Positions 52,855 to 53,322 of a stretch of 64,000 nt of DNA are shown here, one piece after another. Origin of the DNA: an uncultured Clostridia bacterium. Its GTDB lineage: Bacteria > Bacillota > Clostridia > TANB77 > CAG-508. Location of the stretch: positions 21,787 through 85,786 of the forward strand of contig CAKPGC010000001.1 in the NCBI GenBank assembly GCA_934154445.1, given 5' to 3'. Position 1 is the stretch's first letter, and each line of letters begins with the position of its first letter. Under the pieces are notes generated by a model that was given only the letters and a program-made list of their open reading frames with translations, ran no database searches and was not told where the DNA came from. The position numbers and the translations under genes were made by a program.

Positions 52855-53322
52855 TTACAATTGATTTTCAAACTCATTTTGCATAAGATTTTTATCTTGC
52901 ATATTTCCAAATGATATTTCAATCGTTTCTACTTTATTTTTATAATTTCGATTATTCCATTCTAATTTTACTCTTTCATTATTTAGTAAAACTATTACTT
53001 CATTATTATATGAATTTCCTGCTTTAAACAGTTCCATTAATGCCATTTCTTCTAAAGGTATTATATTTGCTGGATTGCTTCCGCTTTCATCTTTTGGTGT
53101 TAGAATATATCTTTCTCCTTTTGGAGTATTTTCTCTACATCTATATAAAACTTCTTCTATATTTATTTCTTTATCCATATCTTTTAAATACAAATTATTT
53201 TGTTTTTTAAATTGTTTTGATATATCTTTTAATTCACTTTGTGTAACTATTCTTCTTTGTAATTGATAATCAGCAATTCTATCTCTAAAAGATTTTGCAT
53301 CGTTGACATTATTTTTCATCAT
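52855..53322 (-). CDS. hypothetical protein encoded between dnaK and dnaJ
   Basis: start chosen at MMKNNVND with RBS AAGGTGG; overlaps dnaK stop by about 14 nt; the longer track ORF (from 53391) would overlap dnaK by 83 nt. Confidence 0.5.

What the first reader, a model, noticed from the sequence alone, without database searches (positions are those of the whole stretch)
52855..53322. An extra gene is wedged between dnaK and dnaJ, overlapping the dnaK stop
The canonical Firmicute order is hrcA-grpE-dnaK-dnaJ. Here a roughly 155-aa protein with no recognisable domain is inserted, with a strong RBS (AAGGTGG) inside the last codons of dnaK and ending 14 nt before dnaJ. Tight translational coupling implies stoichiometric co-expression with Hsp70/Hsp40. 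It may be a lineage-specific co-chaperone, a client-specific adaptor, or a selfish insertion riding a highly expressed operon.
Basis: seen in the sequence. Interest (0 to 1): 0.5.

Follow-up and report, generated by a model that had tools for sequence, protein, structure and literature searches.

The report
Orphan small gene between dnaK and dnaJ
A real but rare, fast-evolving 154/155-residue protein of unknown fold sits between the heat-shock chaperone genes dnaK and dnaJ in a few uncultured gut Clostridia, in a spacer that other relatives leave empty or fill with unrelated small genes, so it may be a new chaperone accessory factor but this is unproven.

Summary
On the minus strand, a 155-codon ORF (53322..52855, more likely starting at 53319) overlaps the dnaK stop. 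It follows AAGGTGG and ends 14 nt before dnaJ, inside a CIRCE-controlled hrcA-grpE-dnaK-X-dnaJ operon with no terminator-like site.

X is a real gene. Exhaustive searches find only about a dozen sequence clusters, all from gut metagenomes. All 11 with genomic context lie between dnaK and dnaJ, with identity down to 24-28% and three different downstream neighbourhoods.

X has no Pfam, NCBIfam, PADLOC, phage or plasmid match. A confident AlphaFold model (pLDDT 78) has no significant structural neighbour.

X is dispensable. Of 56 related species genomes, 42 have an empty spacer, 9 hold a nucleotide pyrophosphohydrolase cassette or its remnant, 4 hold a third cassette, and 1 holds X. Its dN is 4-13 times that of its neighbours.

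In most lineages X sits upstream of a GC-rich hairpin, on the dnaK side. The tight overlap seen in the window is a derived, compact state.

Best guess (0.4): a dispensable binding partner or modulator of DnaK/DnaJ. Main rival (0.35): an unrelated heat-shock-operon hitchhiker in a recombination-exchanged slot.

The parts
56877..56905 (-). Promoter-like site TTGACA-17-TAATAT upstream of hrcA
   Evidence: scores it 10 of 12. This is a consensus match only, and the number of such sites in the region is not above the shuffled expectation.
56841..56867 (-). CIRCE operator (HrcA binding site), TTAGCACTC-N9-GATTGCTAA
   Evidence: 1 mismatch to the consensus, with 0.02 matches expected by chance. It lies 14 nt upstream of the hrcA start. 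The only other match in the window (11966-11992) precedes groES-groEL.
55817..56827 (-). hrcA (336 aa)
   Evidence: The orthologue in L001 carries PF01628.
55286..55801 (-). grpE (171 aa)
   Evidence: The orthologue carries PF01025.
53309..55159 (-). dnaK (616 aa)
   Evidence: The orthologue carries PF00012.
53326..53332 (-). Shine-Dalgarno-like AAGGTGG for X, inside dnaK codons K-V-E
   Evidence: It is 3 nt from ATG 53322 and 6 nt from ATG 53319.
52855..53322 (-). ORF-X: a 155-aa (probably 154-aa, start 53319) acidic, soluble alpha/beta protein of an orphan family. The stop codon is included.
   Evidence: ORF and sequence. Homologues. Always between dnaK and dnaJ. AF2 model with pLDDT 78. No fold match.
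52841..52854 (-). 14-nt X-dnaJ spacer GAAGGATAAGGAAA carrying the dnaJ SD, with no hairpin
   Evidence: The same spacer is found in L001, L002 and L101.
51677..52840 (-). dnaJ (387 aa, class A: J domain, G/F region, CXXCXGXG zinc fingers)
   Evidence: The orthologue carries PF00226, PF00684 and PF01556.

Best explanation
ORF-X is a genuine, lineage-restricted accessory gene of the HrcA/CIRCE-controlled dnaK operon.

Shown:
- It is transcribed in the same unit as hrcA-grpE-dnaK-dnaJ.
- In most lineages it lies between dnaK and the GC-rich intercistronic hairpin, so it belongs to the dnaK (high-expression) arm.
- In the window's subclade the leader and hairpin have been lost. The X start now overlaps the dnaK stop, so ribosomes finishing dnaK can re-initiate on X.

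Inferred:
- The product is a small, acidic, histidine-free, non-enzymatic-looking alpha/beta protein.
- It binds a component of the DnaK-DnaJ machine on heat shock and tunes the cycle. In logic it resembles DafA of Thermus or CbpM of E. coli.
- The conserved acidic loop-helix (E79, N83, P89, E91-E92, L95, L98) is the candidate docking surface, for example for the basic helix II of the J domain.
- The role is helpful but dispensable. That would explain frequent loss and fast sequence evolution.
For: - Position: all 11 sequence clusters with genomic context lie between dnaK and dnaJ. This holds across three different downstream synteny types and down to 24-28% identity.
- Family size: an exhaustive profile search of 1.84 billion representative proteins finds only 9 clusters and none elsewhere.
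- Regulation: CIRCE and a promoter-like site lie upstream of hrcA, and there is no terminator-like site across the operon.
- Placement relative to the hairpin: X is followed within 0-15 nt by a stable hairpin (dG -11.5 to -16.8 kcal/mol) in 6 lineages. It is flagged as terminator-like in L069. The unrelated cassettes B and C lie downstream of such hairpins.
- Selection: the frame is intact in all lineages. Omega is below 1 (NG86 0.34-0.73; ML 0.06-0.18).
- Structure: the globular model is confident (pLDDT 78, pTM 0.72).
- Protein character: no enzyme motifs, no His, family pI mostly 4.8-6.4, GRAVY about -0.9.
- Precedent: small operon-encoded Hsp70-system modulators exist, namely DafA (PMC3727329) and CbpM (PMC8215388, PMC4063869).
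Against: - Only 1 of 56 related species representatives with an intact junction has X, and 42 have nothing there. Their DnaK is roughly 88-98% identical in protein sequence to the window's.
- The same spacer hosts unrelated genes. These include a nucleotide pyrophosphohydrolase that is not a chaperone factor, so position alone does not imply chaperone function.
- Position-locking can also arise from in-situ origin plus homologous recombination through the conserved dnaK and dnaJ flanks.
- X has no similarity in sequence or fold to J domains, GrpE or CbpM.
- There is no interaction, expression or complex-prediction evidence of any kind.
Confidence: 0.4

Rival explanations
1. X is an operon hitchhiker. 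The dnaK-dnaJ spacer of this clade is a permissive, recombination-exchanged slot. Small accessory genes placed there gain heat-inducible expression. X is one such cargo, and its function does not involve direct action on DnaK or DnaJ.
For: - Three unrelated cassettes, remnants and REP-like hairpins occupy the spacer, and they are interleaved on the DnaK+DnaJ tree.
- Cassette B is an NTP pyrophosphohydrolase (phrog_12184, E 4e-8).
- L107 carries X plus a 3' remnant of B.
- The window and L099 form a recombination mosaic. There are 3 differences in about 1600 nt across the dnaK 3' end, X and dnaJ, against 49 in 900 nt further upstream in dnaK.
- From my own knowledge, the B. subtilis dnaK operon also carries non-chaperone genes (prmA, rsmE, mtaB).
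Against: - X is never found outside the slot, although it has persisted long enough to diverge to about 25% identity.
- Unlike B and C, it lies on the dnaK side of the hairpin.
- It looks like a binding protein rather than an enzyme.
Confidence: 0.35
2. X is a conflict gene, for example a guard, decoy or inhibitor linked to phage exploitation of host DnaK/DnaJ. It evolves quickly and shows presence/absence polymorphism, as genes in defence hotspots do.
For: - dN is 4-13 times that of the neighbouring genes.
- Between the window and L005 there are 4 nonsynonymous and 0 synonymous differences in X, while the flanks are identical.
- Distribution is patchy, with alternative cassettes at one locus.
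- MazG-like enzymes are common in phages.
Against: - X, other family members, B and C have no PADLOC hit.
- X has no phage or plasmid homologue and no viral structural neighbour.
- The 4:0 count is too small to be significant.
- ML omega of 0.06-0.18 indicates purifying rather than diversifying selection.
Confidence: 0.1
3. X is a selfish mobile insertion (an IS, MITE or prophage fragment) riding a highly expressed operon.
For: X is sporadically distributed. GC-rich palindromic elements occur in the same spacer in relatives.
Against: - There is no transposase or integrase.
- No inverted or direct repeats bracket X.
- There is no second copy in the window, and G+C and GC3 are native.
- X is absent from phage, plasmid and viral collections.
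- The only non-operon copies are explained. L100 is an evident assembly chimera (G+C jumps from 0.2 to 0.43). L106 is a truncated short contig.
Confidence: 0.03
4. X is a spurious or decaying ORF with no function.
For: - Most relatives lack it.
- Truncated or internally deleted variants exist (P0009, P0010, P0014).
Against: - The frame is intact in 11 divergent clusters.
- Core residues are conserved (E79, N83, I134 invariant; C62, E92, L95, L98, L113, F138 nearly so).
- Omega is below 1.
- All five models give a confident globular fold.
- The SD region is conserved.
Confidence: 0.02

Closest known systems
DafA (DnaK-DnaJ assembly factor A) of Thermus thermophilus
   Same: It is a small, lineage-restricted protein encoded in the dnaK operon. 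It has no J domain or GrpE fold, and it acts by binding the chaperones, forming a DnaK3-DnaJ3-DafA3 complex from which substrate expels DafA (PMC3727329).
   Different: From my own knowledge, DafA is about half the size (about 8 kDa) and is encoded after dnaJ, not between dnaK and dnaJ. Binding of X to anything is untested.
CbpM, modulator of the J-protein CbpA (E. coli and other gamma-proteobacteria)
   Same: It is a small protein co-operonic with a J-domain protein. It regulates the Hsp70 cycle by binding the J domain and is clade-restricted (PMC8215388, PMC4063869).
Non-chaperone passengers of Firmicute dnaK operons (prmA, rsmE, mtaB downstream of dnaJ in Bacillus subtilis; my own knowledge)
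   Same: These genes are co-transcribed with hrcA-grpE-dnaK-dnaJ without being chaperone cofactors. This is the hitchhiker model.
   Different: They are widespread, conserved enzymes located after dnaJ. X is an orphan non-enzyme located between dnaK and dnaJ.
Regulatory dnaK-dnaJ intergenic regions (85 nt with the sRNA tpke11 in E. coli and Salmonella; 301 nt in Leptospira)
   Same: The dnaK-dnaJ spacer is known to vary in length and to uncouple dnaK from dnaJ expression (PMC12077118). The GC-rich hairpins seen here fit that role.
   Different: Those spacers are non-coding. Here the spacer carries alternative protein-coding cassettes.
PAS/GAF and Roadblock/longin-type alpha/beta sandwich domains

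Membership tests
J-domain proteins (Hsp40) | J domain (PF00226) with an HPD motif | tested here: not met
   X has no Pfam hit at E<=10, and none of 10 family members hits PF00226. X contains no histidine at all (sequence).
GrpE-type nucleotide exchange factor | GrpE fold (PF01025) | tested here: not met
   Searches give no hit. A canonical grpE is present at 55286-55801.
CbpM-like J-domain modulators | Sequence similarity to CbpM or MerR-type regulators | tested here: not met
CbpM-like J-domain modulators | Binds the J domain of its operon partner and blocks access to DnaK | not testable with these tools
DafA-like assembly factors | Forms a ternary complex with DnaK and DnaJ and is displaced by substrate | not testable with these tools
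   This is biochemical.
DafA-like assembly factors | Encoded within the dnaK operon | tested here: met
   X lies inside hrcA-grpE-dnaK-X-dnaJ, with CIRCE upstream and no terminator-like site.
Mobile element (IS, MITE or prophage cargo) | Recombinase, terminal repeats or target duplications, multiple genomic copies, and homologues in phages or plasmids | tested here: not met
   No repeats bracket X. There is no paralogue in the window and the composition is native. There are no hits in the viral, phage or plasmid collections.
Known anti-phage defence systems | Match to a PADLOC model | tested here: not met
   Searches give 0 families for X, for three other family members, and for cassettes B and C.
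MazG-like all-alpha NTP pyrophosphohydrolases (the family of cassette B in the same slot) | Sequence similarity to NTP-PPase profiles | tested here: not met
   B matches phrog_12184 at E 4e-8. X and its relatives do not.

The most novel reading that the evidence does not exclude
X founds a new class of bacterial Hsp70-system cofactor. It would be a novel-fold, fast-evolving DnaK or DnaJ-binding modulator. It would be carried as a [leader-ORF-hairpin] module and swapped between species by homologous recombination through the conserved dnaK and dnaJ flanks. On this reading, the dnaK-dnaJ spacer of these gut Clostridia acts as an integrase-free cassette slot that customises the heat-shock operon.
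Probability: 0.2. Interest if true: 0.65.

Novelty: new variant of a known kind. Interest (0 to 1): 0.42.

Why it matters
Bacterial Hsp70 systems are usually described as DnaK plus J-proteins plus GrpE. Only a few extra, clade-specific modulators are known, such as DafA and CbpM. An orphan protein locked between dnaK and dnaJ, on the dnaK side of the attenuator hairpin, is a concrete and cheap-to-test candidate for another one, in an abundant but uncultured group of human-gut Clostridia.

Whatever X does, the data show that the dnaK-dnaJ spacer of this clade is a variable slot. It can be empty or hold X, a MazG-like enzyme or a third cassette, and there are remnants and recombination mosaics. 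This is a small natural example of how a core, highly conserved operon acquires and loses passengers.

If X turns out to be an unrelated passenger, the finding is of modest, mainly comparative-genomic interest.

Tried and rejected
- Domain searches: Pfam, NCBIfam, PADLOC and PHROGs on X and on 10 family members gave nothing usable. The best was phrog_2516, E 0.026, of unknown function.
- PDB sequence profile search: best E 0.4, which is noise.
- The first AF2 run with 4 sequences was poor (pLDDT 57) and was superseded.
- The genome-collection scan with X peptide patterns found nothing. The patterns were too specific, and the window's species is not closely represented: the best representative is 91% identical at the nucleotide level over hrcA-grpE.
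- The viral-contig scan found nothing.
- A third homologue search with a broadened profile found no new relatives.
- Cassette C as a remote X homologue: rejected (hhalign probability 0.07%).
- The L069 gap ORF as an X homologue: accepted with moderate support (hhalign 74%, E 2.9e-5, colinear). It was later recovered as P0015.
- A programmed +1 frameshift making a DnaK-X fusion was considered. The X frame is open 23 codons upstream, and the junction reads AAA TAA. I rejected it because the upstream open stretch and the overlap are absent in most lineages, which have 17-94 nt leaders.
- A 38-nt imperfect direct repeat brackets X (52770-52807 and 53367-53404, 71% identical). It lies in coding sequence on both sides (GVD[KP]NAT in both DnaK and DnaJ). 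I judged it chance or irrelevant, since recombination across it would destroy both genes.
- dN/dS is method-dependent in this 27% G+C genome (NG86 0.34-0.73, LWL85 up to 1.19, ML 0.06-0.18; YN00 failed). I therefore rely on relative dN and frame conservation.
- Literature searches for a described gene between dnaK and dnaJ in Firmicutes found no precedent for this family.

Full report
**Observation**

The operon lies on the minus strand: hrcA 56827..55817, grpE 55801..55286, dnaK 55159..53309, ORF-X 53322..52855 and dnaJ 52840..51677.

dnaK ends ...AAG GTG GAA GAT GAT GAA AAA TAA. X begins in the +1 frame at ATG 53322 or ATG 53319, so it overlaps dnaK by 14 or 11 nt. AAGGTGG (53332-53326) is 3 nt from the first ATG and 6 nt from the second. 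The second ATG (154 aa) is therefore the more plausible start. Gene callers chose that start for the 97%-identical P0001.

The X stop codon is at 52857-52855, and 14 nt (GAAGGATAAGGAAA) separate it from the dnaJ ATG.

A CIRCE operator with 1 mismatch lies at 56841-56867, just upstream of hrcA, behind a TTGACA-17-TAATAT promoter-like site. The only other CIRCE in the window (11966-11992) precedes groES-groEL. No terminator-like site occurs in 51300-57300. X is therefore inside a canonical HrcA-regulated transcription unit.

**X is a real gene in a tiny family**

X has no match in Pfam, NCBIfam or PADLOC, and only a noise-level PHROG hit.

- The word-indexed search of 5.8 billion proteins found three relatives, at 97, 69 and 63% identity.
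- An exhaustive HMMER profile search of 1.84 billion representative proteins found only nine clusters.
- Two further profile searches added P0013-P0015 and then nothing new.

The family is about a dozen clusters, all from gut metagenomes or MAGs.

The alignment keeps the frame intact down to 24-28% identity. E79, N83 and I134 are invariant. C62, E92, L95, L98, L113 and F138 are nearly invariant.

At 27% G+C, an open run of 155 codons has a chance probability of about 1e-6 (my own calculation).

X has native composition (G+C 0.235, GC3 0.109) and no paralogue in the window. It contains no histidine and is hydrophilic. The family is mostly acidic, with pI 4.8-6.4.

**Position**

Every cluster for which a contig could be read has X between dnaK and dnaJ:

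- window/P0001 (L005-7, L099)
- P0002 (L001)
- P0003 (L002-4)
- P0004-type (L101-105)
- P0005 (L107-109)
- P0007 (L110-112)
- P0008 (L088-90)
- P0011 (L096-98)
- P0012 (L094-95)
- P0013 (L091-93)
- the divergent L069 ORF, P0015 (hhalign E 2.9e-5)

Three different downstream neighbourhoods occur: Alg14/Alg13-RuvB, FTHFS-GPR-PNP, and TPR-DpaA-BacA. The family therefore spans several genera.

There are two apparent exceptions, and both are artefact-like:

- L100 is a 2x-coverage contig. An X fragment is fused in frame to an SbcC-like N-terminus and followed by 43% G+C DNA.
- L106 is a short contig with a truncated copy.

**Distribution: X is rare and the spacer is a variable slot**

Using HrcA as the query, I fetched 80 operons from species-representative genomes of the clade. 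Their record titles include 'Clostridium sp. CAG:575', '28_17', 'CAG:440' and uncultured Clostridia from human, chicken, rabbit and ruminant guts.

Of the 56 operons with an intact dnaK-dnaJ junction:

| Spacer content | Genomes |
|---|---|
| Empty spacer (19-394 nt) | 42 |
| Cassette B, intact | 7 |
| Cassette B, remnant | 2 |
| Cassette C, intact | 2 |
| Cassette C, truncated or remnant | 2 |
| X (L069) | 1 |

- Cassette B is a 124-aa nucleotide pyrophosphohydrolase. It matches phrog_12184 at E 4e-8, with weak matches to dUTPase_2 and to PDB 2q73/2q5z.
- Cassette C is an unrelated protein of about 110-140 aa. It is not homologous to X (hhalign probability 0.07%).

On a DnaK+DnaJ neighbour-joining tree, the four states are interleaved among close relatives.

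L107 carries dnaK, X, a hairpin, the 3' remnant of B and dnaJ. This shows that cassettes coexist and decay.

The window and L099 are nearly identical from 53476 to about 51900 (3 differences in about 1600 nt, covering the dnaK 3' end, X and dnaJ). They differ at 49 of 900 positions further upstream in dnaK. This is a recombination mosaic, with the caveat that L099 is a low-coverage contig.

The nearest species representatives are only 85-91% identical to the window at the nucleotide level over hrcA-grpE. The window's own species is therefore not among them.

**Anatomy of the cassette**

Outside the window's subclade, X has a 17-94 nt leader ending in a conserved SD region, GAAAGT(G/T)(A)TGGA. 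In six lineages it is followed within 0-15 nt by a stable GC-rich hairpin, with dG -11.5 to -16.8 kcal/mol. Examples are GGCGGGAT...TTCCGCC in L069, L091 and L094, and GAGGGATT...AATCCCTC in L088 and L110. The L069 hairpin is flagged as terminator-like.

X-less relatives carry similar GGGATT...AATCCC palindromes directly after dnaK. Cassettes B and C sit downstream of them, packed 1-14 nt from the dnaJ start.

So X belongs to the dnaK side of the intercistronic hairpin, and B and C belong to the dnaJ side. Such spacers are known to uncouple dnaK and dnaJ expression in other bacteria (PMC12077118).

The window, L099, L005, L002 and L101/103 share a compact form. The start overlaps or abuts the dnaK stop, there is no hairpin, and 14-20 nt separate X from dnaJ. 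By outgroup comparison this form is derived.

**Evolutionary rate**

The table gives NG86 estimates for the window against L001.

| Gene | dN | dS | omega |
|---|---|---|---|
| X | 0.18 | 0.53 | 0.34 |
| dnaK | 0.014 | 0.245 | 0.055 |
| dnaJ | 0.041 | 0.550 | 0.075 |
| hrcA | 0.029 | 0.712 | 0.041 |

Against L002 and L101, omega for X is 0.70 and 0.45. A codon-frequency-aware ML estimate gives 0.06-0.18, with dS saturated.

The robust statements are these:

- dN of X is 4-13 times that of its neighbours.
- Omega is below 1 by nearly all methods.
- The frame is never broken.

X is therefore under purifying but weak constraint. Between the window and L005 there are 4 nonsynonymous and 0 synonymous changes in X, with identical flanks. 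This is suggestive, but the count is too small to interpret.

**Structure**

With the 10-sequence alignment, AlphaFold2 gives mean pLDDT 78 and pTM 0.72. All five models score 75.6-78, and the core from about residue 20 to 140 mostly scores 82-93.

The predicted elements are H7-17, E24-26, H28-41, H55-64, E71-74, H89-99, E108-113, E116-123, E133-140 and H144-152.

The most conserved polar residues (E79, N83, E91, E92) lie in the 75-88 loop and on helix 89-99.

Fold searches found no significant neighbour:

- Foldseek against PDB and BFVD finds nothing at E<=1e-3.

**Interpretation**

What is shown:

- X is a selected, CIRCE-operon-embedded, clade-restricted orphan protein of unrecognised fold.
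- It is always between dnaK and dnaJ, and usually on the dnaK side of the hairpin.
- It is dispensable and frequently lost.
- It sits in a spacer that exchanges cassettes by recombination.

What is inferred is its function. I favour, at 0.4, a dispensable binding partner or modulator of the DnaK-DnaJ machine.

- Small non-enzymatic proteins embedded in chaperone operons are typically such factors, as with DafA and CbpM (PMC3727329, PMC8215388, PMC4063869).
- X is placed with dnaK rather than with the passenger cassettes.

The main rival, at 0.35, is that X is simply another passenger of a permissive heat-shock slot. The MazG-like enzyme in the same spacer and the rarity of X among relatives support this.

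A conflict-gene reading gets about 0.1. It has only rate and patchiness in its favour, and no defence or phage match. The classical selfish-element and spurious-ORF readings are essentially excluded.

**Comparison with known systems and novelty**

- X fails the membership tests for J-proteins, GrpE and CbpM.
- It also fails the tests for mobile elements, known defence systems and MazG.
- It shares operon logic, but nothing else testable here, with DafA and CbpM.
- I found no published description of this family or of a cassette-bearing dnaK-dnaJ spacer.

I rate it a new variant of a known kind (a small operon-embedded chaperone-system accessory gene). Its sequence and predicted fold are orphan, and its interest is moderate.

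Noticed in passing
L023 6369-6743; also L024, L028, L034, L041, L075, L078, L085; remnants in L045, L047, L080: A 124-aa MazG-like nucleotide pyrophosphohydrolase ('cassette B') occupies the dnaK-dnaJ spacer in at least 8 related species. It lies downstream of a GC-rich hairpin and 12 nt from the dnaJ start. It matches phrog_12184 at E 4e-8, with weak similarity to PDB entries 2q5z and 2q73, which from my own knowledge are integron-associated MazG. Degraded 3' remnants persist in other species.
   Followed up: partly
L025 6410-6835; L030 11580-11909; L051 11577-11888; weak remnant in L058: A third, unrelated small gene ('cassette C', about 110-140 aa) occupies the same spacer. It has no family hit, and its stop is 1-5 nt from the dnaJ ATG. 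It is not homologous to X (hhalign probability 0.07%).
   Followed up: partly
L107 980-1168 (also L108, L109): A 62-aa ORF overlapping the X stop is the C-terminal remnant of cassette B (YYIEVLNRLEITPEEYSKAYIEKHN...KKTF). One operon therefore carries X, a hairpin and a decayed B in series.
   Followed up: yes
dnaK-dnaJ spacers of L008, L010, L012, L013, L014, L018, L024, L028, L034, L035, L045, L046, L048, L049, L083 and others: GC-rich palindromic elements of the form (C)GGGATT..GGGGACG..AATCCC(G) are present, sometimes as inverted pairs or several copies (L012, L014). They occur in 18 of 56 spacers and are absent from the 64-kb window. They could be a REP/MITE-like family or the ancestral dnaK-dnaJ attenuator hairpin.
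   Followed up: partly
window 54376-51900 compared with L099: This is a recombination mosaic. The last 170 nt or so of dnaK, X and most of dnaJ are nearly identical between the two (3 differences in about 1600 nt). The upstream 900 nt of dnaK differ at 49 positions. L099 is a 1.7x-coverage contig, so a two-strain assembly chimera is not excluded.
   Followed up: partly
L100 1180-1857: An X fragment (residues 31-148, 99% nucleotide identity to the window) is fused in frame behind an SbcC-like ATPase N-terminus. It is followed by 43% G+C microcompartment-like genes. This is almost certainly a metagenome assembly chimera, not a second genomic location for X.
   Followed up: yes
P0009, P0010, P0014 (proteins); L106 5-379: Truncated, internally deleted or N-terminally replaced variants of X occur in some metagenomes. 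They are either decaying alleles or assembly errors.
   Followed up: no
window 11966-11992, 11920..11639 and 11566..9929: A second CIRCE element (2 mismatches) lies upstream of groES-groEL. The HrcA regulon of this organism therefore has the canonical two operons.
   Followed up: yes
window 9631-9701 and 9749-9819 (minus strand): Two tRNA genes with identical Rfam scores lie 118 nt apart, just downstream of groEL. They are probably a tandem duplicate.
   Followed up: no
window 49754-50510 (minus strand): Two overlapping ORFs in different frames (121 aa at 50510..50145 and 160 aa at 50236..49754) read like one repeat-rich surface or adhesin-type gene split by a frameshift. They lie downstream of a type IV pilin-like gene (51474..50668, with N-terminus MKNKGITLIALIITIIILLILAGISI).
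   Followed up: no
L027 11642-11959; L085 12566-13600: The 5' part of dnaJ appears frameshifted or split in these two MAGs, around the G/F-rich region. This is either assembly error or genuine disruption.
   Followed up: no
window 52770-52807 and 53367-53404: A 38-nt imperfect direct repeat (71% identity) brackets X. It encodes GVD(K/P)NAT both in the DnaK C-terminal tail and in the DnaJ J domain. It is probably chance.
   Followed up: no
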